Shown here: positions 1,236 to 49,746 of the stretch, in pieces | Layout of the letters: every line of letters starts with the position of its first letter | Position numbering within the stretch: position 1 is the stretch's first letter | DNA from: an uncultured Isosphaeraceae bacterium | Lineage (GTDB): Bacteria; Planctomycetota; GCA-002687715 | Assembly: GCA_964507445.1 (NCBI GenBank) | Contig: CAZDQF010000005.1 | Span: forward strand, 38,436-102,435 | DNA: 64,000 nt | Reading direction: 5' to 3' | Position numbers and translations under genes: made by a program | The notes under the pieces: model-generated | The model's database searches: none | Seen by the model: only the letters and a program-made list of their open reading frames with translations | What the model was told of the DNA's origin: nothing

Positions 1236-1389
1236 GACTGATGGTGCTCTCTCGGCCTTCCCCTCGAAACCACCCGCCTCTGTATTGATCGGCCTCGCAG
1301 CCTCCCGATCGTGATCAAGTATGATCAGACGCTACCATTCCCGCGTCGCCGTACGCCTTTCCACGCATCAAGACTTCCCGGGAGCACTG

Positions 1390-2307: not shown

Positions 2308-2444
2308 CCGGGTCTGCTGCCGCGCAGAATCAACGGCCCTGTGGATTGGGTCCCGATGAGCGGCTCGACCGTGGTAGCCTTGATGTCGGTAGCCAATACC
2401 ACTTCACACTCCACACACTCTCTTGCCCTCAGTACCACTTCGCC

Positions 2445-10736: not shown

Positions 10737-10887
10737 GCAGTTCTCCTGGTTGGACCGTGGTTTCTCGCATCTGCCGCTCCGCTCGGGTCACGGGACAGCA
10801 ATAGCACATGGAGCGCCCCAACGGGAGGCCACCTGAGCAGCGTCACAAGCACCTCTACGCCGGGATGAAGGCCCCCGTCTGCGCCGT

Positions 10888-10901
10888 TAGGATGACCCCC
10901 C
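10888..10901 (+). promoter_or_regulatory. -10-like TAGGAT lying 8 nt upstream of the ATG of the giant flavoprotein gene
   Basis: TAGGAT at 10888-10893, then GACCCCCC, then ATG 10902. No Shine-Dalgarno sequence. Same architecture as at pepE, the PhoD-family gene, the HAD gene and the symporter gene. Confidence 0.3.
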
Positions 10902-16900: not shown

Positions 16901-18941
16901 GCGGCGCCGCGTCAGCGGCTACGCACGGCACCAGGTCTCCATGGAGCGCCTGCGTGAAGGCACCGACGTCCACGCTCGCACCCTCGCTGACCGAGCCCTC
17001 CTGCGCCACGCCGATCCACCTTCGCCGGTCGAGACCATGCCGACCTCCAGCATCACCAGGCCAGTCCGCGTGGCGCTGATCATCGACCCGAGGCCGGTGG
17101 TGGCGCCGACGCCAAGGCTCCATGGCGGGACGTTGCGAGAGCACGCGGCGGAGTTGAGCGACCTGGACCGCGGGATACTGAGCCAACTCCGACGCCTCCG
17201 GGCCACCGCGGACGCGGCTGTCGACGTCACCGTCGTCGGCGTCGGACGGATCGCCACCATGGACGTGCTCCGGGAGACCCTGGCCCTGGGAGCTGACCGG
17301 GCCTTCCTGTTGAACACGGGCACCCGCAACCTGTTCGCGACCGACGTGGCCGGCGCCATCGCAGAGTTGGTGAGAGCCAACGAGGAGCTCGGTGACGCCG
17401 CTTTCGATGTCGTCCTGGGAGCCGCGGATCGCGGGTCCCTGCTGCTCCCCCTGGCCCGAAGGCTGGAGCTGGTGCCCTTCGAAGGCAGCCGCTGCTTCGG
17501 CCTCACGGCGACGACCGATCAACTGGAGTTCCAGGTGAGACCATCCCGGGGTGAGGACATTCAACTCGCCGGGCCCTGTCTCCTGACCATCGAGGACCCC
17601 AGGACGGCGGCGGAGTTCACCTGGAGCATGGAGGGGTGGGGCGCCGCCCAGGCCGTGGACGTGACCGTCGTGGACTTCATCCCCGAGGACGCTCCGTCCA
17701 TCAGGCTCGAGGCCACCATCTCATCGGCGTCGTCGGAGGTCCCGGCGGAAGTCGGCCCCATGGACGTGACCGACGCCGCGGCGCACTTCGCGGAAGCCAC
17801 GGGACTGGACGGGGCACCGGAGACCCGAGGCTTCTACGAGGGGGAGATCACCCGGATGCCGCCGGGCATGTTCTTCCACGGGCTGGGCGCCGTGGCCGTG
17901 GCGGAGGCGGACCAGGAAGGCGGCGTGGCCACCAACATCGCCGGCCCCGCGAACGCGGCGTCCGCCGCCGCGGCGGGGGGTCCTCTCGGCGCGTTGCTCA
18001 TCGTCCCGTCCCAGGATCCGGATGTCGTGAGGAGGGCCGCCGGTGAGACCCTCGCCGTCGCGCCGGGCAGCCGGGTCGGTGTGGTCGCCTGGGAAGGGCT
18101 CATGACCCGTTCCGTCATCACGAGGGCGCAGATCATGGAAGGGCTGCTGCGCGAACACCCCACCCCGGCGTTCTTCGCCACCCGGCTGAGGTCCGCGGCC
18201 TTGCTCTCCGGCGAGGGGCGCGCCCTGGCCGGCGAGGACATCGCGCTGGTGGACGGGGTGGATCGCGTCGGGGCATCAGGCAAGCGCTGCACCCTCTCCG
18301 GGCTCCGCTACGACCGGAAGATCCGGTACCACGCCGACAGCGACGGAGCGTCACCGCACGTGGTGGTGGCCTCGACGGTGGAGACCTCTGAGGCCGAAGC
18401 CGACCCCGCACCAGGGGACGGCGCGGTCATCCTGCTGGATGAGCTACCGCTCCCCAACCAGGAGGACGTCCTCGGCAAGGCGGTGGTGGACGCCGAGCAG
18501 CAGCTCGGTGTCTCCCTCGAGGACGCAGAGTTCATCATCGATGTGGGCTACGGCGTCGGCAGCCGGGACGGCATCGAGGAGGTCATCGAACCGCTCCAGC
18601 AAGCCCTTATCGATCTCGGCGTGAAGGGCGTCACCATCGGGGCCACCCGCAAGGTGACCCAGGACCTCGGCATCCTCCCGGATTCTCATCAGATCGGGCA
18701 GACCGGGGTGTCCGTCGACCCCCGCGTGATGCTCTGTGTCGGCGTCTCCGGCGCTCCGCAACATCTGGAGTACATCGGCGACCGGGCGGTCATCTTCGCC
18801 TTCAACAAGGACGCGGACGCGCCGCTCATGACCCTGAACGGTAGCAGACCGAAGCCGGTGGTGTATCCCATCGTCGGCGACCTGTTCCAACAGGTCCCCC
18901 TGTTCGTCCGGGCGCTGGAAGAGCGGTCGCGGGGTCAGTAG
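10902..18941 (+). CDS. giant multi-domain flavoprotein: FixC/ETF-QO-like FAD oxidoreductase, 2 TM helices, FixX-like ferredoxin, partial ACAD-like module, complete acyl-CoA dehydrogenase, EtfB-like and EtfA-like domains in one polypeptide
   Basis: Single uninterrupted 2,679-aa reading frame. Domains in order:
- nt 10902-12220: GxGxxG VLIVGGGAAGITAA and FixC / ETF-ubiquinone-oxidoreductase-like FAD domain.
- nt 12255-12305 and 12516-12580: hydrophobic helices.
- nt 12751-12856: CPAW...ENCIRCETCW ferredoxin-like segment.
- nt about 13500-14400: ACAD C-terminal-like module (RVQFPGMF...FGAVQEM...GGTAYSEEDPVCRFFRDA).
- nt 14950-16600: full ACAD (FALTEPSAGSD, YRVNGAKMWITNG, IYEGTSEIQR).
- nt 17035-17800: EtfB-like.
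- nt 17800-18941: EtfA-like, with ILPDSHQIGQTGVSVDPRVMLCVGVSGAPQHLEYIGDRAVIFAFNKDADAPLM as the ETF-alpha FAD-domain signature. Confidence 0.8.
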   Translation: MPRSNTKVLIVGGGAAGITAAIGLAKRDIPVVVLEGGLYAGAENWSGAVYFCENLVRPEILGEDGLAQTPVERRVVQRGLLASDGELAVGASVRSPAAFNHCYTVLRPVFDHDLAEKARIHGAEILTGTTALALLRDGDRVRGVLTDRGPIYADVVFLAEGDASNLVTREGLETKNPGESGIVRPEFLQGIKEVLQLPEGEIERRFGVQEGEGACFEILLRNGTVKGATAPLNAGAFLYTNRDSLSIGLVAPLHNLKQVGVRHNQLMEWLKGMPALEGLLDGARPVSFGAKLIRGGGFKEMPRLALDGCAVGGAATGIGLDFPCPNYTGPATFMGWAFSEAVADILDDGGAFTREALEARYVETVQSSSYLTDVHSLKDWPAFVSETRHFFDTQVDVATAMADAATNPERSGHLAVARAALDATSGHRKALMAELNRAGAALGLTRGLGKDILLAVPWWVINCVIGWFPRRTSTDATLVPHLLHGAGVTRESAPWLIRYVRWIMAPGLAEALHHLYRNDGAALPEKLRASRRALLNRISLVDLVLAPLLLLVLTLLNLVARRRETDRRTALDQVSPEVDHDSKLAWLTYRSDEHTHIRFHAAYDEHGLPDDASSSLFNVCPAWVYKQEDSPAGDGSVAVLHENCIRCETCWRADDRRVDWGRTRGQRLVFESYTSADAWLRESREAANLARAARAGTAQPIPPIVDPDPVALDAADRADASAAGTRISRHLRSFRSLMRHMPSVLLGSDRKLLDALGREVIRGVEDLGEALGRHDAADLKSRRDALAGWVRLATDHLDTERFFHFEADLGVLESHHMVEVRALTGVGLSRPPRRASFGMGARRAALRALLEQRLDRDTVAACEASMQPTDDARRALLDVVAALCDPDSGEPVAPGSVARDAALEEMARLSPSLAVLTAGHLAVCDLVHRAETPARPVPALSEVRDDLRTGRVIGGILRGEFWLNDDAVSGQSEACLLGGLGVLALPTGDGFCLLVPGDDGVTTRIVGGLGLRGAGPGTVTLDAVVPRAFFSGEPAGDWLRERACWDLVAVARGMSAYLLERALDHAASRVQFPGMFKDHRGRDSIAKFGAVQEMLGVMTENQEVLEALRDRAGMGRPAAALAINLLGPSPRSTAYLAGQVLGGTAYSEEDPVCRFFRDAATLTRLPIHLAQIWGEVGDTALGMGPEGPDLPDLDMEPRPLAAPDEASRLVATPIRDVDDAVRAFTAAVGELEEADRAALRREVGRLTLDVAAVRALASRVEARLEDGARGGISSAALEGLCERTAARARRLTLRLGDVPALCELGRQLLDNHTVSTPPNGDGATYGDYLSSDGSFTSGDLLMKPSQNDLVLTPELIHADPELAALKQQIDDTWKSRYRDRRPGEEPYTRYVERLHHVPLTDIRTLLDEGYFRLIIPTAHGGEGAKKVAYYLATTAMMRHGDPTQAIIVMGSTSIGTTPLLLGLEQDLPEARRTLTSLMERRDEVEAAAAGDGQARKALRSLLGNKAVRGLLPRDLRGWEAKVQEELDSLPGREAAHAFFLRLIASGSISAFALTEPSAGSDTARVRTKAELCHVPVEADPRGFWTFRPEGAPEDTVRNLFTYDSLEFADDGITFVGADGQRTPLDVRDFDHQGDVRSSAESKHRYVVLDGERIDVHDIGRVTEQDGATVYPYYRVNGAKMWITNGSTAGVMILYARTGRGPTGFMLDAHAEGLVIGKDEEKMGQRGSATNELALSDVRIPRDQVIGIEGRGQENALETLNVGRAGLAVSCTGLIQEVVEDLRAHFSDDDAEPTPEQLLELGKIALDAVNAESLGWQLAGRFDHGGTVSVRMESALAKASNTEAYHRVLTRAERVLSPRFVLDDHELEKRRRDARVLTIYEGTSEIQRFLMLRDLVDGLREDQGQGAPETELWGPFSAARGDLFKHVGAVQRGLGPRAWQQAGLQPVVFPLVEGLMALGGYTATVQRLQVAERLLDENDPAAAELLGFIRRAAQLSGEDLERRRVSGYARHQVSMERLREGTDVHARTLADRALLRHADPPSPVETMPTSSITRPVRVALIIDPRPVVAPTPRLHGGTLREHAAELSDLDRGILSQLRRLRATADAAVDVTVVGVGRIATMDVLRETLALGADRAFLLNTGTRNLFATDVAGAIAELVRANEELGDAAFDVVLGAADRGSLLLPLARRLELVPFEGSRCFGLTATTDQLEFQVRPSRGEDIQLAGPCLLTIEDPRTAAEFTWSMEGWGAAQAVDVTVVDFIPEDAPSIRLEATISSASSEVPAEVGPMDVTDAAAHFAEATGLDGAPETRGFYEGEITRMPPGMFFHGLGAVAVAEADQEGGVATNIAGPANAASAAAAGGPLGALLIVPSQDPDVVRRAAGETLAVAPGSRVGVVAWEGLMTRSVITRAQIMEGLLREHPTPAFFATRLRSAALLSGEGRALAGEDIALVDGVDRVGASGKRCTLSGLRYDRKIRYHADSDGASPHVVVASTVETSEAEADPAPGDGAVILLDELPLPNQEDVLGKAVVDAEQQLGVSLEDAEFIIDVGYGVGSRDGIEEVIEPLQQALIDLGVKGVTIGATRKVTQDLGILPDSHQIGQTGVSVDPRVMLCVGVSGAPQHLEYIGDRAVIFAFNKDADAPLMTLNGSRPKPVVYPIVGDLFQQVPLFVRALEERSRGQ

Positions 18942-20473
18942 TTCAGCGCGCTCAGCGGCACACGGAGACGGTGGACACGATCTCCGGCGATGTTGATGAC
19001 CTCGTAGCTGACGCCGGGGTCTTCTCCGCCGGGCTCGAACCGCACGAATCCGAAAGAAGGCGTGGCGTTGTAGGAGAAGAGCGCCCTCTTCATCACCGCG
19101 TGCTTGTGGACGTTGGTCAGCCGGGAGGAGTTGAACTCGTAGATGGGGTATCCACCCGGGCGTTGGTTCAGCCAGGCGTCAGACCGGTGACGGTCAGCGG
19201 AGAGTTGCACCACGCCGGTGATCCTGTGCTCTGAGAGGAAGCGGTAGATCCCTGCCCGTTCCTGGGGATGCCCGTCCCACGTGTCCTTGCTCTTGCCCTT
19301 CGTCCCCGTCGCCCAGGGCACCGGGGAACAGATCACCTTGAACACCGCCTTCGAGTCCTTGAGTCCCTGCTTCAGCCAGCGCAGCTGATGGGGTCCGAGC
19401 ATGGAGCTGGAGCCGTCGCCCTTGGGCCTCTCACGGTACGCCCGTCCGTCGAGCATGAAGAAGTCCACGGCGCCCCAGGAGAAGCTGTACCAGCAACCCG
19501 GCCGCTCCACGCCGCCGCCGTACCCCGGGTTGGCCCAATTCTCGACGAACACATCCCAGACGTCCCGCTTCCACGGTGGGGTGTCCACCGCGGGGCCGCC
19601 CTTGCAGTCGTTGGTGCCGAAGTCGTGATCATCCCAGATGGAGAACGTCGGTACGCGGGCGGTGAGGGCGCGGTAAGGCGGGCTGGCCTGACGACGGTGA
19701 TAGCAGTACCGCTGAACGTCGGGGTGCTTGGGGTGATCGATGTAGACATTGTCCCCCAGGAGCAGCAGCAGGTCCGGGGAGGTCTTGGCGATGGTCGACC
19801 ACATGTGCTCATGCCGTGGCGTGAACCCGGCGCCGCCGCCGAAGGCGAGGGTGAACGCCCCCTTCGAACCGAGGGTCGGAGCCGTTCGGAACGCCAGCAC
19901 AGCAGCGGTCGGCTCTTCTCCGCTGTCAGGCCGCAGATCCACGGTCCCTTCGTAGGCCGTGTCCGACTCCAGGCCCGTCATGTGCAACACCGCGGTGCAA
20001 TCGGAGGCTGGCTCGGTGCGCGCCTCGACCCGGCGCCCCGCGACCGAGAGCACCACCGTGGCGGGGCTGGTGGTCCGGACCCACACCCGCGCATCGTGAG
20101 GACCCACGGCACCCACCATGGGGCCCATGGCGATGCGGGGCGTCTCGCAGAGCTCGGGGTAGCGATCTCGAAGCGGACGCAGCCAATGCTGGAAGGCCAC
20201 GGCCAGTCGCCCCTCGGGGAACCCGAGACGACGCACCCGTTCCACCGCCGCCGCGGCCGCGGCCGGATTCTGCTGCGCCGCCTCGGCGATGGCGACCATG
20301 AACCAGTCTTCAGGGTCATCATCGTTGGCCGCGATACGGCCGCGGAGGGTCTTGAGGGCCACCGCGGGCTTGCCGTCGACGATCTGACGCAACGCGTCAC
20401 GGTGGATCTTCTTGTACTGGCCCTGAGCCGCGAGGCACCCGACCATGGTCAGGAAGATGATGCAGGTTCGCAT
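18935..20473 (-). CDS. PhoD-family alkaline phosphatase / metallophosphatase, secreted
   Basis: IWDDHDFGTND and GDNVYIDH are PhoD-family motifs. Internal ATG 20473 gives the signal peptide MRTCIIFLTMVGCLAAQ; the ORF-track start 20728 is over-extended. The 3' end overlaps the giant gene by 7 nt. Confidence 0.8.
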   Translation of the reverse strand: MRTCIIFLTMVGCLAAQGQYKKIHRDALRQIVDGKPAVALKTLRGRIAANDDDPEDWFMVAIAEAAQQNPAAAAAAVERVRRLGFPEGRLAVAFQHWLRPLRDRYPELCETPRIAMGPMVGAVGPHDARVWVRTTSPATVVLSVAGRRVEARTEPASDCTAVLHMTGLESDTAYEGTVDLRPDSGEEPTAAVLAFRTAPTLGSKGAFTLAFGGGAGFTPRHEHMWSTIAKTSPDLLLLLGDNVYIDHPKHPDVQRYCYHRRQASPPYRALTARVPTFSIWDDHDFGTNDCKGGPAVDTPPWKRDVWDVFVENWANPGYGGGVERPGCWYSFSWGAVDFFMLDGRAYRERPKGDGSSSMLGPHQLRWLKQGLKDSKAVFKVICSPVPWATGTKGKSKDTWDGHPQERAGIYRFLSEHRITGVVQLSADRHRSDAWLNQRPGGYPIYEFNSSRLTNVHKHAVMKRALFSYNATPSFGFVRFEPGGEDPGVSYEVINIAGDRVHRLRVPLSALNY

Positions 20474-20488
20474 GGCCCGGTATCCTAC
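20474..20488 (-). promoter_or_regulatory. -10-like TAGGAT lying 8 nt upstream of the ATG of the PhoD-family gene
   Basis: Sense-strand sequence is GTAGGATACCGGGCC followed by ATG. It shares an identical 16-nt core with the pepE junction. Confidence 0.3.
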
Positions 20489-20492
20489 AGCC

Positions 20493-20843
20493 ATGAACGG
20501 ACTGAGCGCTGAGCAGGTAGCAGAGCTGCGGGCGGACCTGGCGACGCTGCACCAGGAGTTGGAGGCGCTCCTCACCATGGCCGACGACGGCGCCAGGCCC
20601 ATCGAGCTGGAGCAACCCATCGGCCGACTGTCTCGAATGGACGCCATGCAACAGCGAGAGATGGCCATGGCGAACCACGCCGCACACCAACGTCGCCTCA
20701 GTCTGGTGGACGAGGCCGTGGAGGCCATGGAGGACGGGAGCTACGGCCTCTGCGCCAACTGCGACCGGCCCATCGCGTTCAGCCGTCTCAAGGCGCTGCC
20801 GGAGACGATCTCCTGCCTGCCGTGCCAGGAGCGCCTCGAGTAG
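20493..20843 (+). CDS. DksA/TraR-family C4-type zinc-finger protein
   Basis: CANCDRPI...CLPCQE C4 zinc finger at the C-terminus after a coiled-coil region. Start ATG 20493 (MNGLSAEQ); the alternative ATG 20472 overlaps the start of the PhoD-family gene. Confidence 0.7.
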   Translation: MNGLSAEQVAELRADLATLHQELEALLTMADDGARPIELEQPIGRLSRMDAMQQREMAMANHAAHQRRLSLVDEAVEAMEDGSYGLCANCDRPIAFSRLKALPETISCLPCQERLE

Positions 20844-20859
20844 GCGATTCCCCCTGTCC

Positions 20860-21735
20860 TCACCGCCTGCCCGGCCGCAGCACCAGCCACATGCCGAGGA
20901 ACACTCCCGCCGCGGCGATGGAGTTGGCCACGGTCACCGGTTCTCCGTGGATCAGGACCCCCGTGAAGACCACCAACGCCGGCTGCGAGAACGTGTACAC
21001 CGCGGCCGTGGACGCGCTGAGCCGGGTGAGCGCGAAGAGATTCAGCAGGTAACCCAGGATGGTGGGAAAGAGAACGACAAAGCCGAGGGCCCACCACGAC
21101 GCGGCGCTCGCGGCCGCAGGGGCGAGGTCCGCGTCCCAGGACATGATCGGCAGCGACCACAGCGCGAAGAAGAACATCCACGCGGTGACCGCCATGGGGG
21201 GATGTTCTTTGAGCAGAGGCTTGGAGAGGACCAGGTAGACCGAGTACACCAGCATGTTGCTCAGCAGCAGCAGGTCTCCCAGCAGGTGAACGGCGCCCTC
21301 GTGGAAGAGGAGCTGGACGATGGCCACCAGCCCCACGACGATGCCCGCGATCCGCCGCCTGTCGGGCCGCTCCTGCCCCGCGATCAAAGCCACTCCGTAG
21401 GTGAGCGCCGGGATGAGCCCGACCATGAGTCCGGCGTTGGTGATGGGGGCCCGCTTCAGCCCTTCGAGGAAGCAGAACTGGTTCAGCGCGATCCCCATGA
21501 GGGCGGCCAGCTGGATCCGCACCAGGCTACGAAGCGGCGGGATCGCGGCCCCTCGGTGGAGCACGATGGCGATCATCCCCAGCACCAGGGCTCCGGTTCC
21601 GATACGCCAGACCGCCACGGCGGACGGCTCGAACCCCTCGAACGCCATCTTCCCGTAGAGCGGGAACAGGCCGAAGAAGAGCTGCGTGAAGCCGAGCGCC
21701 ACGTGGTGCGGGAGAGTGGAGCCAGCGCTGCCCAT
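20860..21735 (-). CDS. EamA-family (DMT superfamily) transporter
   Basis: 291 aa with about 10 hydrophobic helices and the duplicated EamA architecture. TAGTTT lies 8 nt upstream of the ATG. Confidence 0.7.
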   Translation of the reverse strand: MGSAGSTLPHHVALGFTQLFFGLFPLYGKMAFEGFEPSAVAVWRIGTGALVLGMIAIVLHRGAAIPPLRSLVRIQLAALMGIALNQFCFLEGLKRAPITNAGLMVGLIPALTYGVALIAGQERPDRRRIAGIVVGLVAIVQLLFHEGAVHLLGDLLLLSNMLVYSVYLVLSKPLLKEHPPMAVTAWMFFFALWSLPIMSWDADLAPAAASAASWWALGFVVLFPTILGYLLNLFALTRLSASTAAVYTFSQPALVVFTGVLIHGEPVTVANSIAAAGVFLGMWLVLRPGRR

Positions 21736-21758
21736 GGGCGGCTAAACTACGCCCTCTG

Positions 21759-22553
21759 ATGCCAAGGCACCATGTCGTCATCCTCGCCCTCGCCTTCGTG
21801 GCCGGGTCCTGCGGGCACCCTCCGGCCGTGAACCAGGGTCCATCCGCCGAACCCCGCGGCCTTCAGGTTCGCTCGGGTGTGGTCGGACACAGCGTTGAAG
21901 GTCGGCAGATCCGTTGGGAGGTCTACGGCGACGGGCCCGACGTCTGCATGATCATCGCCACCATTCATGGCAACGAGGCCGCCGGGACGCCGCTCCTCGC
22001 TTCCCTCAAGGCCCACCTGGACGATCACCCCGACCTGCTCGAAGGGCGGTCCCTCGTCCTGGTCCCTGTCGCCAACCCGGACGGCCTGGCCAAAGGGCGG
22101 AGGCACAACGTCAACGGCGTGGACCTCAACCGCAACTTCCCCGCCGACAACTTCCAGGCATCCCGCCGCCACGGCCCCCGCGCCCTCTCCGAGCCCGAAG
22201 CCAGAGCCCTCCGGGACCTCGTCTATCGTCACAACCCCGCTCGCGTGGTCAGCATCCACCAACCCATCGCCTGCATTGACTGGGACGGCCCCGGGGAGGG
22301 GCTGGCCCGGGCCATGTCGGAGCTCTCGGGCCTCGAAGCCAGGCGCATCGGCAGCCGCCCCGGCTCCTTCGGCTCATGGATCGGCGTGGACATGAACCGG
22401 CCCATCATCACCGTCGAGCTGCCCCGATCCGCCGACAGGCTGAGCGAGGAGGCCGCGTGGGATGCGTACGGCAGCATGCTCATCCAGAGCCTCATCTGGC
22501 CACGACGCCTGCAGGTCGTCCCTTACGCACAAGATCAGGAGACCGCACCGTGA
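21759..22553 (+). CDS. M14-family zinc carboxypeptidase / gamma-D-glutamyl-meso-DAP amidase (MpaA-like), lipoprotein
   Basis: HGNEAAG zinc-binding motif, NPDG, and the SIHQ motif of the succinylglutamate-desuccinylase / MpaA group. N-terminal lipoprotein-like signal LALAFVAGSCG. Confidence 0.65.
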   Translation: MPRHHVVILALAFVAGSCGHPPAVNQGPSAEPRGLQVRSGVVGHSVEGRQIRWEVYGDGPDVCMIIATIHGNEAAGTPLLASLKAHLDDHPDLLEGRSLVLVPVANPDGLAKGRRHNVNGVDLNRNFPADNFQASRRHGPRALSEPEARALRDLVYRHNPARVVSIHQPIACIDWDGPGEGLARAMSELSGLEARRIGSRPGSFGSWIGVDMNRPIITVELPRSADRLSEEAAWDAYGSMLIQSLIWPRRLQVVPYAQDQETAP

Positions 22554-22567
22554 ACGACTGGCGCGCC

Positions 22568-23398
22568 ATGCACGAGCAGAACAGGAGATCATGGAACGCT
22601 GTCACGGCGGCTCACAACAGCCACAAGCGCGACCAGGCGAAGTTCCTGAGCGCCGGAGGCAGCACCCTGTTCCCCGAAGAGCTGGAGCTTCTCGGAGACG
22701 TCTCAGGGAGAGACCTGGCACATCTGCAGTGCAACTGCGGTCAGGACTCCCTCTCCCTCTCGCAGATGGGGGCGCACGTCACGGGAGTGGACATCTCGGA
22801 TCGCGCCATCGATGTGGCGCAGGGGCTCGCCGACTCCACGGGCATCGCGTGCGCGTTCGTGCGCTCGGACCTGCTCGAGTGGCTTGAGTCCACGAGCGAG
22901 CGTTTTGATGTGGCGTTCGCCAGCTACGGGTGCGCGGGGTGGATATCGGATATCAACAGGTGGGCGCACGGCATCTCCCGCATCCTCAAGCCGAACGGGC
23001 AGCTGGTCTACATGGAGTTCCATCCGTTGGTGTGGAGCCTCGACGCCACGGGGCTCGCCGGCGACTCCTACTTCGTCCATGACCCGATCGTCGAGGAGGA
23101 AGGGGTCACCGACTATGTGGGTGAAGCCCTCGCGCCATCCGGATTCGAGCGCGGAGTGGAGGGCTTCACGAACCCCGAGCGCGCCTACAGCTTCCAGTGG
23201 CCCGCCGCCGCCATCATGCAGGCTCTCATCGACGCAGGCATGAGCTTGAACGTGGTGCGAGAGTACCCCTACGCCAACGGCTGCGAGCTGTTCGAGGGCA
23301 TGCAGAGGACCCCGGGCAACCGCTACACCCTCCCCGGTCACATGCCCTCCCTGCCGCTCATGCTCGGCCTGCGCGCTCAGCAACCAGCAGACAGCTGA
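22568..23398 (+). CDS. class I SAM-dependent methyltransferase
   Basis: GVDISDRAIDVA...FDVAFAS...LKPNGQLV are Rossmann-type methyltransferase motifs I-III. ATG 22568; the ORF-track start 22376 is an Arg/His-rich over-extension. Confidence 0.6.
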   Translation: MHEQNRRSWNAVTAAHNSHKRDQAKFLSAGGSTLFPEELELLGDVSGRDLAHLQCNCGQDSLSLSQMGAHVTGVDISDRAIDVAQGLADSTGIACAFVRSDLLEWLESTSERFDVAFASYGCAGWISDINRWAHGISRILKPNGQLVYMEFHPLVWSLDATGLAGDSYFVHDPIVEEEGVTDYVGEALAPSGFERGVEGFTNPERAYSFQWPAAAIMQALIDAGMSLNVVREYPYANGCELFEGMQRTPGNRYTLPGHMPSLPLMLGLRAQQPADS

Positions 23399-23425
23399 GA
23401 GAGCGGTAGACCGAGCCCGGACTGT

Positions 23426-23962
23426 TCAGAGCCCCATGGAGTCCAGGAGCCCTGCGGGGGTCGTCTCCACGGTCAGCAGTTGACGGGCCTCCGCGCTGAC
23501 AAAGCCCTCCGCCACCAGGTGATCGGCGAGGGACAGCCAGGGTTGGAAGAAGCCCTCCACGTCCAGCACGCCGATAGGGGCGCGCAGCTCGCCCAGCTGC
23601 TTCCAGGTGAGGACCTCGAGCATCTCGTCAAAGGTCCCGTATCCTCCGGGGAGCGCGATGAAGGCCTTGGACTCCGCGATCATCAGCTCTTTTCTCGGCA
23701 TCATCCCGGTGGTCACTTCCATCCGCTGCAGCCCCGGGTGCGCGATCTCCACCGTGTGAAGGAACCCTGGGATCACCCCGAGGACCTGTCCGCCGGCGTC
23801 GAGCACGGCGTCCGCACAGACCCCCATGAGACCGATGGACCCACCCCCGTAGACCAGGTCGTGGCCACGCTCGACGAGGACCCGGCCCAGCTCCACGGCG
23901 GCCGCCTCGAAGGCGGGGCGCGCCCCTTTCTGGGATCCACAGAAGACACAGACGGCTGACAT
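23426..23962 (-). CDS. LOG-family cytokinin riboside 5'-monophosphate phosphoribohydrolase / TIGR00730 protein
   Basis: VYGGGSIGLMG and PGGYGTFDE motifs are characteristic of the LOG family. 178 aa. TACAAT lies 9 nt upstream of the ATG. Confidence 0.75.
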   Translation of the reverse strand: MSAVCVFCGSQKGARPAFEAAAVELGRVLVERGHDLVYGGGSIGLMGVCADAVLDAGGQVLGVIPGFLHTVEIAHPGLQRMEVTTGMMPRKELMIAESKAFIALPGGYGTFDEMLEVLTWKQLGELRAPIGVLDVEGFFQPWLSLADHLVAEGFVSAEARQLLTVETTPAGLLDSMGL

Positions 23963-24020
23963 GGGCGCGGGATTGTAGCCCTGTGGAGCGAGCCCCGATA
24001 GGCTGCCGCTGTGCAGCTTC

Positions 24021-24034
24021 TAGACTGGGTTGTG
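24021..24034 (+). promoter_or_regulatory. -10-like TAGACT lying 8 nt upstream of ATG 24035 of the symporter gene
   Basis: TAGACT, then GGGTTGTG, then ATG. Same leaderless-type architecture. Confidence 0.3.
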
Positions 24035-26716
24035 ATGGCGGCATACGCCGCGTTGGTGCTCTGGATCGGATGGAGAACCGGACGCGGCCACCAGACCACG
24101 GACGAGCTCTTCCTCGGCGGTCGCCGCATACCCGCGTGGGCCGCGTTCCTGTCCATGGTCGCCACGGAGCTGTCCGCGGCCACCTACATCGCGGTGCCGG
24201 CCGCCGCCTACGGAGGAGACTGGGCGTACCTGCAGTTCGCGTTCGGCGCCCTGGCGGGCAAGGTCGTCCTGGGGGTGTGGTTCATCCGTCGCTACCACGC
24301 CATGGGCCTGGTGACGGTCTACGGGTTCCTCCAGCAGCGGTTCGGGCGCGGCGTGGAGCTGCTGGCGTCCTGGTTCTTCCTGGTCGGTCGCCTGTTCGCC
24401 TCCGGATCACGCCTCTTCATCGGCGCCCTGGCCTTCGCCACGGTCACGGGCCAACCCATGGTGCCTTCGATCCTCATGGCGGGGCTGGTGGCCGGGATCT
24501 ACACCCTGAGCGGCGGCATCAAGGCGGTCATCTGGACCGACACCCTGCAGGGAGCGGTGTTCATCTTCGCCGCCGTGACGGCGCTCGTCGTGGTGCTGGG
24601 AGAGACCGGCGGTCTCGGTGAGGTCTGGACCACGGCGGAATCCGCGGACAAGACTCAGGTGTTCCACTTCCCCGACCTTGGAGGACCCACGGCGGCCGAG
24701 ATCTGGGATGCGTTGCTCGGGAACTACATCACCGGAGCCAGCGCGTTCCTGGTGGCCTTGTTCGGGGGCTTCTTCCTGACCCTGGCGAGCCACGGCACCG
24801 ATCAGGATATGGTCCAGCGCCTGCTGACCACCCGCACGGGCAACAAGGGGGCCATGGCGCTGATCGGCTCGGCCATCACCAACTTCCCGCTGTCCGCCCT
24901 GTTCTTGTTCCTGGGCACATCCCTCTGGGTCTTCTATCGCCCCGACTCTCCCGACCCATGGACCGCTTACGACATCAGCGACTCGGGTCGGATCTTCCCT
25001 GTGTTCGTGCTCCACGAGATCCCCGCCGGTATCCGAGGGTTGATCTTCGCCGGGCTCTTCGCCGCCGCCATGTCCAGCATGGACTCCGCCCTCAACTCCC
25101 TGGCCACCACCTGGGTCGTGAACATCCGACGCAACGCTCAGGTGTCTCCCGAGGAGCGACTGCGGATGACCCGAAGGGCGACCGTCGTGCTCGGACTGCT
25201 CCTCATCGGCGCCGCCCTTGGGTGCGTGGCCTGGGCGCAGGCCATGAAGGCCAGCGGATTCGGGTTGCTGGACGTGGCCCTCGGGAGCATGACCATCCTC
25301 TACGGCGGCCTCCTGGGGGCGTTCCTGGTGGGCATGATGACCGAGCGGGGCAGCCAGGGGAGCGTCATGGCGGGCATGCTCGCCAGCGGCTGCCTCGGGC
25401 TCGTCCTCCTGTTCCAGCCGCTGTACACCGACGGGGCGAAGGTGGTGGTGGCGTGGCCCTGGTGGATCATCATCGGCACCGTCGTCTCCTTCGGCATCGG
25501 CGTCCTCGGGCGCAGCAAGCCGCGGCCTCCCGGGAAGCGGAGCCCACTGTGGTTCTTCCTCTACTGCGGCCTCGTGGTCTTGCTGCTGATGGAGGTAGGG
25601 GTGCGAGTCCTGAGCAAGGAGGCCCACGGTCACCTGCAGGTCGGCGACCTCAAGCTGGTGCCCTTTGCACGGGTCTCGGACGAGCACCGCCAGATCCTGA
25701 ACACGAAGCTGGATCAATTCACCTACAAGATCCCGGACCGGGAGCTGGGGTGGACCATCCGACCCAACGGCCGCAGCCGTGACGGCATGGGCGCCGCCAA
25801 CGCCATGGGCCTGCGCTCGGCGCCGTCTCCGGTCCGTCCCCCGTCCGACTCCGTGAGCCGGGTGCTGCTGCTGGGAGATTCCTACACCCACGGAGATGAG
25901 GTGCCCTGGAACGCCACCTGGGCGGCGCAGCTGCAACGCACCATGGGCGACAGCTACGAGATCCTCAACGGCGGCGTCGGCGGCTACGGCACGGACCAGG
26001 CGATCCTCCGCGGCCGGAGGCTTCGGGAGAAGCTGCGTCCTCAGTGGATCGTCCTCGGTATCCACACGGACGACATGCTCAGGAACGTCACCGTCATGCG
26101 GGCCATCCAGCACCCGTGGACCAACCTCCCCTGGCCCAAGCCCCGTTTCATCCTGGATGCGGACCAGGAGTCCGGCTTGAGGCTGGTCAATCACCCGGTG
26201 GAACCCTGGCCCCCGGAGAAGGTCATCGACGTGCTGGCGAACTACGACGACCACCCCGGGCTACGGGACTGGGATCGCCTGCGGTGGCCTGACCTCTACA
26301 CGGATCGTGCCTGGTACGGATCTCGCCTGCTGCGATGGGTGGCCTCCAGGAAGATCCACCGCGACCGTCACGAGGACCGGCAGGCCCTCATGCGGGACGA
26401 GAACGAGGCGGTGATGGTGACGGCTCTGCTCGCCCGCATGTTCTGTCGCGAGGTGACGGAGTCTGGCGCGCGACCCTTGGTGCTCTTGCTCCCCGCAGAC
26501 GACGAGATCCCCGGGTACGCGGAGGGCAAGAACCCGCGACTGCGGTACCTGCACGCGCAGCTGGAGCGGCTGGAGGTGCCCTTTGTGGATGCGGGGTCCG
26601 CCCTCTTCAAGGAACTCAAGCCTGGCGAAAGCCCCGCAGCCCTCTATCTCATGAGCCACATGAACCGGCGCGGCAACGGCGTCGTCGCGCGCACCCTCGC
26701 CCCCCTCCTCCGGTGA
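24035..26716 (+). CDS. sodium:solute symporter (SSS family) fused to a C-terminal SGNH/GDSL hydrolase domain
   Basis: The N-terminal 520 aa or so has 13 hydrophobic helices and SSS-family architecture. It is followed by an extra helix (WFFLYCGLVVLLLMEV), then GDSL block I LLLGDSYTHGDE, block II NGGVGGYGTDQ and an SHMN-type block V. The alternative start GTG 24011 adds 8 aa. Confidence 0.75.
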   Translation: MAAYAALVLWIGWRTGRGHQTTDELFLGGRRIPAWAAFLSMVATELSAATYIAVPAAAYGGDWAYLQFAFGALAGKVVLGVWFIRRYHAMGLVTVYGFLQQRFGRGVELLASWFFLVGRLFASGSRLFIGALAFATVTGQPMVPSILMAGLVAGIYTLSGGIKAVIWTDTLQGAVFIFAAVTALVVVLGETGGLGEVWTTAESADKTQVFHFPDLGGPTAAEIWDALLGNYITGASAFLVALFGGFFLTLASHGTDQDMVQRLLTTRTGNKGAMALIGSAITNFPLSALFLFLGTSLWVFYRPDSPDPWTAYDISDSGRIFPVFVLHEIPAGIRGLIFAGLFAAAMSSMDSALNSLATTWVVNIRRNAQVSPEERLRMTRRATVVLGLLLIGAALGCVAWAQAMKASGFGLLDVALGSMTILYGGLLGAFLVGMMTERGSQGSVMAGMLASGCLGLVLLFQPLYTDGAKVVVAWPWWIIIGTVVSFGIGVLGRSKPRPPGKRSPLWFFLYCGLVVLLLMEVGVRVLSKEAHGHLQVGDLKLVPFARVSDEHRQILNTKLDQFTYKIPDRELGWTIRPNGRSRDGMGAANAMGLRSAPSPVRPPSDSVSRVLLLGDSYTHGDEVPWNATWAAQLQRTMGDSYEILNGGVGGYGTDQAILRGRRLREKLRPQWIVLGIHTDDMLRNVTVMRAIQHPWTNLPWPKPRFILDADQESGLRLVNHPVEPWPPEKVIDVLANYDDHPGLRDWDRLRWPDLYTDRAWYGSRLLRWVASRKIHRDRHEDRQALMRDENEAVMVTALLARMFCREVTESGARPLVLLLPADDEIPGYAEGKNPRLRYLHAQLERLEVPFVDAGSALFKELKPGESPAALYLMSHMNRRGNGVVARTLAPLLR

Positions 26717-27891
26717 ACCGACCTGGATTCGATACCCGACCGGTGGTCCTGGCCTACGTGGGCTTCTTCGCCTACCTCGGCTCCGCGGGCCCGTGGCTGA
26801 CCACCTATCTGGCAGATCGCGGGTTCGGTCACGGCGTCGCCGGGACGCTCATGGCCACGTTGACCGCGTCCGCCATCACCGGCAGCCTGCTGGCGGCGCG
26901 GGTCGCGGACGCGCGACGAAACCGGCGTCAGCTGCAGCGCTTCCTCTCCCTGGGAGCCACCGCCGCGACCCTCTGCTGGCTGTGGGTCACCGAACCCTGG
27001 ATGGGATACGGGGTGGTCATCCTGCAAGGCCTGTGCATCGGGCCTCAGATCCCCATGCTCGACGCCACCACCATCGACGGCCTGGGCAAGGAGCGCCGAC
27101 GCTACGGCCGTATCCGCGTGTGGGGGTCCCTGTCCTGGGGCGTCGCGACCCTGGTGATCGGCGCCAGCAGGCAGTACGAAGCGGGAGCGGAGTGGATCAT
27201 CCCCGTGTCCATGTCCGGGTGGCTCCTCATCTACCACCTCTCCACCTGGACCATGGCGGACACGCAAGCACCGGCGGAGCACCAGCGGCCGCAACTCGAC
27301 CTGAAGGCGGCCTTCCGCTGCGCGCCCCTCATGCTGCTGCTGTTCACGTCCGCGCTTCACGGCGTCGCGTTCAGCAACTACGAGTATTTCTCCGCCCGGA
27401 CCTTTGAAGAGTTCGGTGTCTCCCCCTTCGGGATCTCCGGCATCCTGATGGTCGGGATCCTGTGCGAGTCGGTGGTGTTCTGGACGGCGCCTTTGCTGCT
27501 CGCCCGTTGGAACCCGCTGCACCTCGCAATCGTCGCCTTGCTGGCCACGGGCGTCCGCTGGTGGGTCATGCCGCAGATCGGCTCCGTCGCCGGGTTCGCC
27601 CTCCTGCAACCCACCCACGCGTTCAGCTTCGCCCTCTGGTACAGCGCCGCCCTCCACCTCATCTCCCGGTTCGTCCATGAAGAGGTGCGGACCAGCGGAC
27701 AGACCCTGCTGTTCATCTCCCTGTCGGGAGGCATGGCCGTCGGCGTCGCCGTCGGCGGCACGCTCCGTGAGCAGCTCGGGACGACGGCCACCTTCCAGGG
27801 GGCCGCGGTGGTCGAGCTGCTGGCGGCGGCGGTCCTGATCCTGTCCGCTGGCCTCTTCAGCCGCAGAGAAACGGTCGGCGCCAGGGACTGA
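26712..27891 (+). CDS. MFS transporter, MFS_1_like / PPP (HcaT-like) family
   Basis: 12 hydrophobic helices. YGRIRVWGSLSWGVAT resembles the HcaT YGKVRLWGSVAF motif. GTG start 26712 overlaps the upstream stop (GTGA), so the two genes are translationally coupled. Confidence 0.65.
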
Positions 27892-29617: not shown

Positions 29618-29651
29618 CACCGTCGATGATAGCGAGTGTGGGCGAAAATCG

Positions 29652-49625: not shown

Positions 49626-49746
49626 TCCGTGACCGCACGACCGTGCGGGTCTCTTGACCTCGTCTGTAAACGGGGGGGGATGCGCGACGGGCGTCAGCCT
49701 CGCCGCTCACCCCCCGGTACCATGCTGGCTCAACGGAGCCCGCATC

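What the first reader, a model, noticed from the sequence alone, without database searches (positions are those of the whole stretch)
24011..27891. Sodium:solute symporter fused to an SGNH esterase and translationally coupled to an MFS permease
The first gene pairs an SSS-family permease of about 520 aa with a C-terminal SGNH/GDSL hydrolase (LLLGDSYTHGD, NGGVGGYGTDQ). One extra hydrophobic helix separates them, which by topology would place the esterase on the outside face (14 spans). The stop overlaps the GTG of an HcaT-like MFS transporter (GTGA). An esterase tethered to its importer suggests de-esterification of a substrate before uptake, for example an O-acetylated sugar or muropeptide. 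I do not recognise this fusion as described. MurQ, NagZ and an MpaA-like amidase elsewhere in the window make an amino-sugar link plausible, but not shown.
Basis: partly seen in the sequence, partly recalled or inferred. Interest (0 to 1): 0.6.

Follow-up and report, generated by a model that had tools for sequence, protein, structure and literature searches.

The report
Symporter–esterase fusion born by inversion
The symporter–esterase fusion gene is real, but it occurs in one near-clonal marine Planctomycetota population, where a 14.8-kb chromosomal inversion removed the symporter's stop codon, so it is best read as a recent accident rather than an evolved "de-esterify then import" machine.

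Summary
ORF 24011-26716 encodes a 13-helix sodium:solute symporter, a 14th helix and an outward-facing SGNH hydrolase. Its TGA overlaps the GTG of an MFS gene (GTGA).

The design interpretation is not supported. Among 5.8 billion proteins the fusion exists only in the window's own near-clonal cluster, which was assembled independently in at least 24 contigs. All relatives keep two separate operons:
- a symporter of about 500 aa, translationally coupled to a NagZ-like GH3 gene;
- a stand-alone SGNH protein of about 400 aa with an N-terminal membrane anchor, coupled to the MFS gene.

Both arrangements lie about 14 kb apart on opposite strands in the closest relatives. In the window the segment 10737-25531 is inverted. 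One breakpoint sits at the symporter stop / GH3 start overlap. The other lies about 12 codons into the SGNH gene. The reciprocal junction survives: the old SGNH 5' region and first codons now abut the GH3 start at 10736.

The join connects a cytoplasmic C-terminus to a cytoplasmic N-terminus, so it is topologically neutral. The catalytic Ser624 and His883 and the Na2 site are intact.

Most likely both halves keep their separate ancestral roles. The esterase's conserved partner is the MFS, not the symporter. This is a neat case of fusion birth, of modest general interest.

The parts
24011..26716 (+). Fused ORF of 901 aa: symporter, 14th helix and SGNH hydrolase.
   Evidence: The identical product is on at least 24 independent contigs.
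24011..25531 (+). Symporter-derived part, aa 1 to about 507. It has 13 transmembrane helices, with the N-terminus outside and the C-terminus inside. The Na2-site residues A352, S355 and S356 are conserved.
   Evidence: SSF 119 bits. AlphaFold2 helices with pLDDT above 90. Charge distribution in the loops. Closest solved structure is SiaT 5nv9, E = 2.5e-48, which has 13 helices with a periplasmic N-terminus and a cytoplasmic C-terminus (PMC5931594). Stand-alone homologues end 7 aa after GIGVLG.
25499..25546 (+). Cytoplasmic junction, aa 497-512 (GVLGRSKPRPPGKRSP), with 5 Lys/Arg and no acidic residue. The inferred inversion breakpoint is about 25531/25532, plus or minus a few bases.
25547..25624 (+). 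Helix 14, aa 513-538. It is the former N-terminal signal anchor of the stand-alone SGNH protein. E528 and R532 are conserved among orthologues.
   Evidence: Alignment with stand-alone orthologues. Models. There is no in-frame ATG, GTG or TTG between the symporter end and this helix.
25625..26713 (+). Periplasmic SGNH hydrolase domain. Ser624 is at 25880-25882, the Gly-rich block II at aa 653-663, an atypical block III D687-D688 followed by R691-N692, and His883 at 26657-26659.
26713..26716 (+). GTGA start/stop overlap between the fused ORF and the MFS gene. It is ancestral to the SGNH-MFS pair.
26713..27891 (+). MFS_1_like permease of 392 aa, the conserved operon partner of the SGNH gene.
10737..25531 (.). 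Segment of about 14.8 kb that is inverted relative to all known relatives. It runs from the old SGNH 5' end through the giant ORF, PhoD, DksA-like, EamA, M14, methyltransferase and LOG genes to the symporter.
   Evidence: tblastn synteny map against relatives. Gene orders in relatives. CPC9/TARA is one species carrying the ancestral order on both sides.
10726..10830 (-). Reciprocal junction. It holds the conserved SGNH 5' box TGTGCTAT..GTGACCC (10808 downwards) and a remnant of the SGNH N-terminal codons (ORF MRETTVQPGELRDF*, 10770 to 10726), abutting and overlapping the GH3 start.
9228..10736 (-). NagZ-like GH3 gene of 502 aa. It is the ancestral translationally coupled partner of the symporter and is now separated from it.
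   Evidence: Coupling in relatives.
21759..22553 (+). MpaA-like M14 peptidase, upstream of the symporter and syntenic in relatives.

Best explanation
This is a young, lineage-specific in-frame gene fusion made by one chromosomal inversion of about 14.8 kb.

Ancestral state (seen in every relative):
- A SiaT-like sodium:solute symporter of about 505 aa, whose stop codon overlapped the start of a NagZ-like GH3 gene.
- About 14 kb away on the other strand, a membrane-anchored periplasmic SGNH hydrolase of about 400 aa, whose stop overlapped the start of an MFS permease.

The event: the inversion broke just before the symporter's stop codon and about 12 codons into the SGNH gene. The symporter reading frame now runs into the SGNH frame.

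The product: a 13-helix symporter ends in the cytoplasm. The SGNH protein's arginine-rich N-terminus also lay in the cytoplasm before its anchor helix. The join is therefore topologically neutral. The old anchor becomes helix 14 and still places the esterase in the periplasm.

How it most likely works (inferred):
- The symporter half still imports its own substrate with sodium. That substrate is probably an acidic or peptidoglycan-derived amino sugar, given the ancestral NagZ coupling and the MpaA-like and MurQ neighbours.
- The esterase half still works at the outer face of the membrane together with the MFS permease. The MFS gene is now co-transcribed from the symporter's promoter.
- The GH3 gene has inherited the SGNH gene's old 5' region.

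Shown here: the fusion's reality, its uniqueness, its origin and its topology. Inferred: that both halves remain active and independent, and what their substrates are.
For: Uniqueness:
- A full-length search found the fusion only in the window's own 90% cluster. All 119 other top hits are 495-579 aa symporters.
- Hits to the C-terminal half are stand-alone proteins of 233-498 aa.
- An exhaustive profile search found 5,612 cluster representatives at E <= 1e-30. The best 150 are all 380-579 aa, with the match starting within about 107 residues of the N-terminus.

The fusion is real: at least 24 contigs carry it, with identical DNA in three samples.

Ancestral operons:
- Symporter followed by GH3 with a short start/stop overlap, in L001/L097, L005, L007 and L177; in L103 the GH3 follows after a short gap.
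- SGNH followed by MFS in L013-L019.
- Both are on one 40-kb contig in ERR3484147_670. Both are also present in CPC9/TARA, the closest relative.

The inversion:
- The window's gene order equals the relatives' order with the giant-ORF-to-symporter segment flipped.
- Junction 1 reads GIGVLG, then a 7-aa symporter tail, then GKRSPLWFFLYC of the SGNH protein.
- Junction 2 carries the SGNH 5' box and remnant codons next to the GH3 GTG.

Topology: 13 + 1 helices, positive-inside loops and SiaT homology.

Integrity:
- Ser624 and His883 are conserved.
- Na2-site residues S355 and S356 and D177 are conserved.
- The SGNH half deviates at 6 of 74 highly conserved columns, and five of those changes are conservative.
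- Its divergence from an outgroup (56%) lies within the range of neighbouring genes.
- GC3 is uniform across the halves.
Against: - No expression, protein or activity data exist.
- The population is near-clonal (at most 2 differences in 8.7 kb), so selection on the fused frame cannot be measured.
- The window's SGNH and MFS are no closer to the sister species than to the outgroup (58/56% and 60/62.5%). The symporter is clearly closer to the sister (80/65%). This heterogeneity is unexplained and could reflect faster evolution after the rearrangement.
- Tethering could impair either half.
- Substrates of all three proteins are unknown.
- No repeat or mobile element explains the inversion.
Confidence: 0.7

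Rival explanations
1. Functional chimera. The tethered periplasmic esterase removes an acyl group from a sugar or muropeptide right above the symporter's outer vestibule. The symporter then imports the product, so the fusion is adaptive.
For: - The esterase faces the same side as the symporter's entry.
- Both halves look intact.
- The symporter's closest solved relative carries an acetylated acidic sugar (PMC5931594).
- Weak fold matches include sialate and carbohydrate acetylesterases.
- The fusion is fixed in the sampled population.
Against: - No relative shows the two genes fused, adjacent or in one operon.
- The origin is a single rearrangement with a reciprocal product.
- The conserved partners are GH3 for the symporter and MFS for the esterase.
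- Only 2 of 5 SiaT ligand residues are kept.
- With no divergence within the cluster there is no sign of co-adaptation.
Confidence: 0.12
2. Tolerated damage. The fusion is neutral to mildly harmful. One half, most likely the esterase, is poorly expressed, misfolded or inactive, and is on its way to loss.
For: - The event also broke the symporter-NagZ operon and swapped promoters.
- The esterase cannot be translated on its own with a full anchor.
- The window's SGNH half deviates at more conserved sites (8.1%) than its nearest orthologues (0-2.8%).
Against: - The 2.7-kb frame is open.
- Ser and His are kept.
- Five of the six deviations are conservative.
- The downstream MFS is intact and still coupled.
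- The relative-rate excess is like that of GH3, EamA and the giant ORF.
Confidence: 0.13
3. Processed fusion. The polypeptide is cleaved after helix 14, for example by signal peptidase, which restores two separate proteins.
For: Helix 14 derives from an N-terminal export or anchor signal. A V-L-S|K site follows it.
Against: - The hydrophobic stretch is about 22 residues, which is anchor-like.
- E528 and R532 in it are conserved among orthologues.
- It is modelled with pLDDT of about 97, continuous with the domain.
- There is no A-x-A site.
Confidence: 0.04
4. Assembly or sequencing artefact: a chimeric contig or a lost stop codon.
For: None beyond the fusion being restricted to one cluster.
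Against: - At least 24 contigs from several assemblers and archives carry it, with identical sequence.
- The reciprocal junction is on the same contig.
Confidence: 0.01

Closest known systems
AT3-SGNH fused O-acetyltransferases (OafA, OafB, OatA)
   Same: A polytopic membrane domain is followed by one extra helix that carries a C-terminal SGNH domain to the periplasm (PMC7448272).
   Different: - The membrane part here is a LeuT-fold symporter, not an AT3 domain. There is no PF01757 hit.
- AT3-SGNH fusions are ancient, widespread and co-evolved. This one is confined to one near-clonal population and has no evidence of interplay between its domains.
SiaT, the sodium/sialic acid symporter of Proteus mirabilis (PDB 5nv9)
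   Same: - It is the best solved relative of the N-terminal half (E = 2.5e-48).
- It has 13 helices with the N-terminus outside and the C-terminus inside.
- The Na2-site Ser-Ser and the Na3-site Asp are conserved.
   Different: Of the ligand residues T58, S60, T63, Q82 and R135, only S60 and T63 are matched. The window has E53, S55, T58, A77 and A130 at those positions. Sialic acid specificity is therefore not supported. The ancestral partner is a NagZ-like GH3 gene, not nan genes.
Sensor kinases containing a symporter domain (CbrA, MxtR/CrbS)
   Same: A 13-helix domain of the same symporter family carries a C-terminal extension. In CbrA the two parts work largely independently (PMC7918813).
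   Different: Those extensions are cytoplasmic signalling domains joined without an extra helix. Here the extension is a periplasmic hydrolase behind a 14th helix.
TesA / lysophospholipase L1 and carbohydrate acetylesterases (SGNH hydrolases)
   Same: - Same fold.
- The block I GDS serine, the block II glycines and the block V histidine are present.
- TesA is the best named sequence relative of the core.
   Different: - This protein has about 400 aa, with an N-terminal anchor, an extra beta-rich N-terminal region and a helical insertion of about 90 aa.
- There is no Asp three residues before the His.
- Block III has Asp-Asp where the wider family has Glu-Asn.
- TM-score to any solved structure, normalised to the query, is at most 0.46.
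NanS-type sialate O-acetylesterase acting before a sialic acid transporter
   Different: - Those components are separate proteins.
- The structural match is only weak (E about 1e-4).
- There is no genomic link to nan genes here.
HcaT / PPP, NHS and OHS families of MFS permeases
   Same: The downstream permease matches MFS_1_like, Nuc_H_symport and the HcaT model over its full length.
   Different: It scores far below every equivalog cut-off (94.5 against 259). It has no solved relative by sequence. Its substrate is unknown.

Membership tests
Sodium:solute symporter family (PF00474, TIGR00813, TC 2.A.21) | Profile match above the curated cut-off. | tested here: met
   SSF 119.2 bits against 22.8. 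TIGR00813 190.3 against 184.
Sodium:solute symporter family (PF00474, TIGR00813, TC 2.A.21) | LeuT-type core with 13 helices, N-terminus outside and C-terminus inside. | tested here: met
   AlphaFold2 helices, with broken helices at aa 42-68 and 246-272. Positive-inside loops. Alignment to SiaT (PMC5931594).
Sodium:solute symporter family (PF00474, TIGR00813, TC 2.A.21) | Na2 site: two hydroxyl residues on helix 8 of the SiaT numbering (Tm8). | tested here: met
   S355 and S356 align to SiaT S342 and S343 and are invariant in 63 homologues.
Sodium:solute symporter family (PF00474, TIGR00813, TC 2.A.21) | Sodium-coupled uptake activity. | not testable with these tools
   Needs transport assays.
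SiaT sialic acid symporters | Neu5Ac-binding residues T58, S60, T63, Q82 and R135. | tested here: not met
   The aligned residues are E53, S55, T58, A77 and A130, so 2 of 5 match.
SGNH/GDSL hydrolases | SGNH fold. | tested here: met
   Model pLDDT 96. Foldseek probability 1.0 to TesA and to carbohydrate and sialate esterases. Lipase_GDSL_2 scores 37 bits against 32.9, and 106 of 112 family members match it.
SGNH/GDSL hydrolases | Block I GDS serine and block V histidine. | tested here: met
   Ser624 is conserved in at least 90% and His883 is invariant among 112 homologues.
SGNH/GDSL hydrolases | Block II glycine and block III asparagine (oxyanion hole). | tested here: inconclusive
   The Gly-rich block NGGVGGYG is conserved. 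At the block III position the wider family has E-N. The window and its close orthologues have D/Q-D (D687-D688), followed by the invariant R691 and then N692.
SGNH/GDSL hydrolases | Block V aspartate three residues before the histidine (DxxH). | tested here: not met
   The window has L880 at His-3, and orthologues have Gly or other residues. The Asp is absent across the family, so this is not decay specific to the fusion.
AT3-SGNH fused acyltransferases | An N-terminal AT3 (PF01757) domain of 10 helices. | tested here: not met
   Only SSF and Lipase_GDSL_2 are found.
AlgX/AlgJ/DltD-type SGNH-like O-acyltransferases | A match to the family profile and an MBOAT partner gene. | tested here: not met
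   ALGX matches 18 of 112 family members, but not the window's protein. No MBOAT appears among the 25 families listed of 67 found in 60 same-strand neighbours. Matches to AlgJ and AlgX chains are weak (E = 9e-5 to 7e-4).
HcaT (3-phenylpropionate MFS transporter) | Score above the equivalog cut-off. | tested here: not met
   94.5 bits against 259. The general MFS_1_like model is met at 144.8 bits against 25.2.
NagZ (beta-N-acetylhexosaminidase), for the symporter's ancestral partner | Score above the equivalog cut-off. | tested here: inconclusive
   186.9 bits against 207, covering the catalytic domain. The protein carries a further 200 aa or so at the C-terminus.

The most novel reading that the evidence does not exclude
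The accident produced a working "esterase-symporter". The periplasmic SGNH domain, held over the symporter's entrance by helix 14, de-acylates a peptidoglycan- or glycan-derived acidic sugar. The symporter and/or the co-transcribed MFS permease then import it. This would be a newly born, selectable substrate-channelling module.

A related reading: this NagZ-coupled symporter clade is an undescribed, AmpG-independent importer of cell-wall sugars.
Probability: 0.1. Interest if true: 0.6.

Novelty: new variant of a known kind. Interest (0 to 1): 0.3.

Why it matters
This is a clean natural example of how a multi-domain membrane protein can be born in one step.
- An inversion breakpoint falling at an overlapping stop/start signal deletes the stop codon.
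- Both joined ends were cytoplasmic, so the old signal anchor is reused as a linker helix and the membrane topology of neither part is disturbed.
- The same event swaps the regulation of two operons.

The case also shows why a striking fusion read from one genome should not be taken as evidence of functional coupling until its distribution is checked.

Two things here have more general potential than the fusion itself:
- the symporter clade coupled to a NagZ-like gene, a candidate importer of a peptidoglycan-derived sugar;
- the very large, uncharacterised family of membrane-anchored SGNH proteins of about 400 aa.

Tried and rejected
- A composite alignment of symporter and SGNH homologues for a full-length model was misaligned by MAFFT, which placed the SGNH rows on the symporter half. 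It was not used. The full-length model used symporter rows only, so its SGNH half is low-confidence. The separate model covers that half.
- Neighbours of 80 distant SGNH loci show no consistent partner. They have no MBOAT, MFS or symporter. SxtJ appears in 5 of 60. This gives no functional clue.
- Most of the 80 metagenomic symporter loci were distant (about 33% identity) and lack a GH3 neighbour.
- A programmed, switchable inversion was considered and rejected. There is no significant inverted repeat at the breakpoints (longest 9 nt, which is the 95th percentile of shuffles), and all assemblies show one orientation.
- An independent start for the esterase was considered and rejected. There is no in-frame start codon before helix 14 and no promoter-like site.
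- dN/dS could not be computed because there is no variation.
- Rfam gave no hit in the whole window.
- Literature searches found no symporter-SGNH fusion and no symporter of this family in peptidoglycan recycling. MurT of Tannerella is described only as a novel transporter family.
- An AmpG or acetyl-CoA-transporter-like role for the MFS was rejected on its profile matches.

Full report
**1.

ORF 24011-26716 (+) is open for 901 codons from a GTG.
- Gene callers elsewhere start it at the ATG at 24035, giving 893 aa. The N-termini of homologues (MQAIDW.., MELLDW..) align with the longer form.
- Pfam finds SSF over aa 34-457 (119 bits). It finds Lipase_GDSL_2 over aa 621-701, just above its cut-off. 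TIGR00813 passes its cut-off.
- The stop TGA (26714-26716) overlaps a GTG at 26713. That GTG opens a 392-aa MFS_1_like permease.
- Orthologous gene pairs use TTGA or GTGA at the same position and share the N-terminus (L/V)NRP.., so this start is the real one.
- The permease resembles HcaT only loosely (94.5 bits against a cut-off of 259). It has no solved relative by sequence.

**2. Fold and topology**

C-terminal half:
- An AlphaFold2 model of aa 505-901, built on 112 homologues, has mean pLDDT 96.
- Foldseek matches many SGNH hydrolases at probability 1.0, including TesA, carbohydrate acetylesterases and sialate esterases.
- None of these is close. TM-score normalised to the query is at most 0.46 and identity is at most 15% among the E <= 1e-4 matches.
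- Ser624 (GDS) and His883 are conserved across the family.
- The Asp usually found three residues before the His is absent throughout the family.
- At block III the wider family has Glu-Asn. The window and its close orthologues have Asp/Gln-Asp, followed by an invariant Arg.

N-terminal half:
- A full-length model gives pLDDT above 90 for aa 1-500, with 13 transmembrane helices.
- These include the two broken helices typical of the LeuT fold. A further helix follows at aa 514-538.
- Loop charges follow the positive-inside rule throughout. The junction loop at aa 497-512 has five Lys/Arg and no acidic residue.
- The best solved relative is SiaT (5nv9, E = 2.5e-48). SiaT has 13 helices with a periplasmic N-terminus and a cytoplasmic C-terminus (PMC5931594).

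**3. The fusion is real but unique**

- With the whole protein as query, the only fused hits among 5.8 billion proteins are the window's own 90% cluster. The other 119 listed hits, at 41-80% identity, are symporters of 495-579 aa.
- The cluster has three members. They differ by single residues or are truncated at a contig end.
- The 893-aa form lies on at least 24 contigs from JGI, ENA, NCBI and Logan assemblies.
- Three of those loci differ from the window at 0, 0 and 2 of 8,682 bases.
- This rules out an assembly artefact. It also shows that only one near-clonal population has been sampled.
- With aa 505-901 as query, all hits are stand-alone proteins of 233-498 aa. The nearest are 40-60% identical and cover 93-100% of the query, including the helix.
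- An exhaustive profile search of 1.84 billion representatives finds 5,612 at E <= 1e-30. The best 150 are all 380-579 aa, with the match beginning near the N-terminus.
- No symporter gene lies within 10 kb of any of 80 genomic SGNH-family loci.
- No SGNH or MFS gene lies beside any of 80 metagenomic symporter loci, and none of those symporters extends into an SGNH domain.

**4. What the relatives have**

- Upstream synteny is shared with the relatives at 80%, 72% and 65% symporter identity: PhoD, a DksA-like gene, EamA, an M14 peptidase, and sometimes a methyltransferase and a LOG gene.
- In all three the symporter is followed by a GH3 gene whose start overlaps its stop. The same holds in a closed 4.3-Mb genome at 56% identity, and a 36%-identity locus has the GH3 gene just downstream after a short gap.
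- The SGNH orthologues are each followed by the MFS gene. The pair usually has a 4-nt overlap. It sits divergently next to a giant ORF of about 2,700 aa.
- In ERR3484147_670 both operons lie on one 40-kb contig. The order is MFS and SGNH (both leftward), then giant, M20, PhoD, DksA, EamA, M14, symporter and GH3.
- The TARA scaffold carrying the 80% symporter is 99.9% identical in DNA to MAG CPC9 ("Planctomycetota bacterium"). CPC9 has SGNH-MFS next to the giant ORF. The closest known relative therefore carries the ancestral order on both sides.

**5. The inversion**

A tblastn map of the relatives' genes onto the window gives this order:
- Leftward from the giant ORF: kinase, PepE (minus strand), aminotransferase, GH3 (10736 to 9231, minus strand).
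- Then the giant ORF (10902-18941), PhoD, DksA-like, EamA, M14 and onward to the symporter.
- Then SGNH, MFS, an FHA-trypsin protease (minus), an amino-acid permease (minus), an epimerase (minus) and a glyoxalase.

This is exactly the ancestral order with the giant-ORF-to-symporter segment flipped.

Junction 1:
- Stand-alone symporters end seven residues after GIGVLG.
- The window reads GIGVLG-RSKPRPP-GKRSPLWFFLYC.
- From FLYC onward the window's sequence aligns with the anchor helices of the SGNH orthologues (..RRWRRRLGFVLYC....WRRRIGFALYC..).

Junction 2 (minus strand, 10830 to 10726):
- The box TGTGCTAT..GTGACCC precedes the SGNH start in CPC9, L015 and, in slightly variant form, L013. It is present here too.
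- It is followed by GAAACCACG (Glu-Thr-Thr, as in MVEVETTQ.. and MVGAETTQ..).
- There is a 14-codon remnant ORF, MRETTVQPGELRDF*. It runs straight into, and overlaps, the GH3 GTG at 10736.

The remnant of about 11 codons plus the part retained in the fusion add up to the length of the orthologues' N-terminal tails. Little or nothing was lost.

The breakpoints therefore lie within a few bases of the symporter stop / GH3 start overlap, and about 12 codons into the SGNH gene. The inverted segment is about 10737-25531, or 14.8 kb.

Several successive outgroups carry the unfused order, and the reciprocal product is present in the window. This fixes the direction of change.

No inverted repeat above chance marks the breakpoints. 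All assemblies share one orientation. A switchable inversion is therefore unlikely.

**6. Consequences**

- The symporter lost its stop codon because that codon was part of the overlap left behind with GH3.
- The esterase lost its start codon and its cytoplasmic tail.
- No in-frame start codon precedes helix 14. Export and anchoring of the esterase therefore now depend on the fusion.
- Both joined ends were cytoplasmic, so neither part's topology changes.
- SGNH-MFS now lies downstream of the symporter's promoter region. No promoter-like or terminator-like signal lies at the symporter-SGNH junction.
- GH3 now sits behind the old SGNH 5' region. An AGGAG lies about 6 nt before its GTG.

**7. 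Are the halves still functional?**

- The Na2-site serines (S355, S356) and the Na3 aspartate (D177) align with SiaT's. They are invariant in 63 homologues.
- The esterase keeps Ser624 and His883.
- The esterase deviates at 6 of 74 columns that are nearly invariant among 14 orthologues. Five of the six changes are conservative.
- Against the outgroup, the window's SGNH is 56% identical and CPC9's is 61%. This excess resembles that of GH3 (64 against 70), EamA (57 against 63) and the giant ORF (59 against 64).
- GC3 is uniform across the halves: 0.91, 0.88 and 0.89.
- Nothing indicates decay. Equally, nothing indicates co-adaptation, because the population offers no variation.
- One oddity remains. 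The symporter is much closer to CPC9 (80%) than SGNH (58%), MFS (60%) or the giant ORF (61%). For those three the window is about as far from CPC9 as from the outgroup.

**8. What each part probably does (inference)**

- *Symporter.* Its ancestral coupling to a NagZ-like GH3 (186.9 bits against a cut-off of 207), the MpaA-like M14 peptidase just upstream and MurQ in the window point to uptake of a peptidoglycan-derived or related acidic amino sugar.
  - It is not a SiaT orthologue, because only 2 of 5 ligand residues match.
  - Symporters of this family for acidic amino sugars are known: SiaT, and OngIT for GlcNAc1A (PMC9537276).
  - I found none described for muropeptides or MurNAc.
- *Esterase.* Its conserved partner is the MFS permease, but only within the close orthologue group. 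Distant family members have varied neighbours and no MBOAT among the families listed for their neighbours.
  - A periplasmic hydrolysis step feeding the MFS is the simplest reading.
  - The conserved Glu and Arg in the anchor helix, and the confident packing of that helix in the model, leave open a substrate at the membrane surface.
  - The substrate is unknown.

**9. Comparison with known systems**

- The architecture resembles AT3-SGNH acyltransferases: a polytopic domain, one extra helix and a periplasmic SGNH domain (PMC7448272). There is no AT3 domain here.
- It also resembles symporter-domain sensor kinases such as CbrA, whose two parts work largely independently (PMC7918813). Those extensions are cytoplasmic.
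- The symporter-SGNH architecture itself appears undescribed in what I could search.

**10. Verdict**

The feature is real and the architecture is new. It is a single-lineage product of one rearrangement joining two unrelated operons. The proposal that the esterase prepares substrate for its tethered importer is not supported by distribution, synteny or origin, although it cannot be excluded without experiments.

Noticed in passing
window 10726-10830 (-) and 9228-10736 (-): The NagZ-like GH3 gene now sits behind the former SGNH 5' region. A 14-codon remnant ORF (MRETTVQPGELRDF*) overlaps its GTG start, and an AGGAG lies about 6 nt upstream. The inversion therefore also swapped regulation between the two operons.
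   Followed up: partly
L001/L097, L005, L007, L177, L103; window 24011-25531: In relatives down to 56% identity the symporter's stop overlaps the start of a NagZ-like GH3 gene, and one 36%-identity locus has the GH3 just downstream. An MpaA-like peptidase lies upstream, and MurQ and PepE are nearby in the window. This clade is a candidate symporter-type importer of a peptidoglycan-derived sugar. Literature searches found none described.
   Followed up: partly
window 25547-26713; proteins P0123-P0383: The esterase belongs to a very large uncharacterised family of SGNH proteins of about 400 aa with an N-terminal anchor (5,612 representatives at E <= 1e-30). The family has an extra N-terminal beta region and a helical insert, and lacks the DxxH aspartate. 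In the MFS-linked orthologues block III carries Asp instead of Asn. Tandem paralogues are common (L020, L058, L062, L066, L070, L084, L095).
   Followed up: partly
window versus L001/L017/L019 (CPC9) and L007/L013: Identity to the sister species is uneven. The symporter is 80% and GH3 74%, but SGNH is 58%, MFS 60% and the giant ORF 61%. For the last three the window is as far from the sister as from the outgroup. This is unexplained: it could be rate change after the rearrangement, or differing gene histories.
   Followed up: partly
window 10902-18941 (+): A giant 2,679-aa ORF. Its relatives carry FAD-binding, acyl-CoA dehydrogenase and ETF-alpha domains in one polypeptide. It is 63% identical to the CPC9 protein.
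   Followed up: no
window 10798-10808 (-); L013, L015, L017, L019 upstream of the SGNH gene: A conserved box, TGTGCTAT..GTGA(C/G)CC, lies 10-20 nt before the SGNH start codon in several orthologues and is retained in the window. It may be a promoter or leader element. There is no Rfam match.
   Followed up: no
window 1321-2307 (+) and 2304-4118 (+): MurQ (364 bits) is followed, with a 4-nt overlap, by a 604-aa ORF that has no Pfam or NCBIfam match.
   Followed up: no
window 52503-55133 (-), 49654-51762 (+), 27905-29761 (-): Three other multi-domain proteins: a Ser/Thr kinase fused to an FGE-sulfatase domain; a sulfatase with a Laminin_G_3 tail; and an FHA plus trypsin-like protease that converges on the MFS gene with a 13-nt gap.
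   Followed up: no
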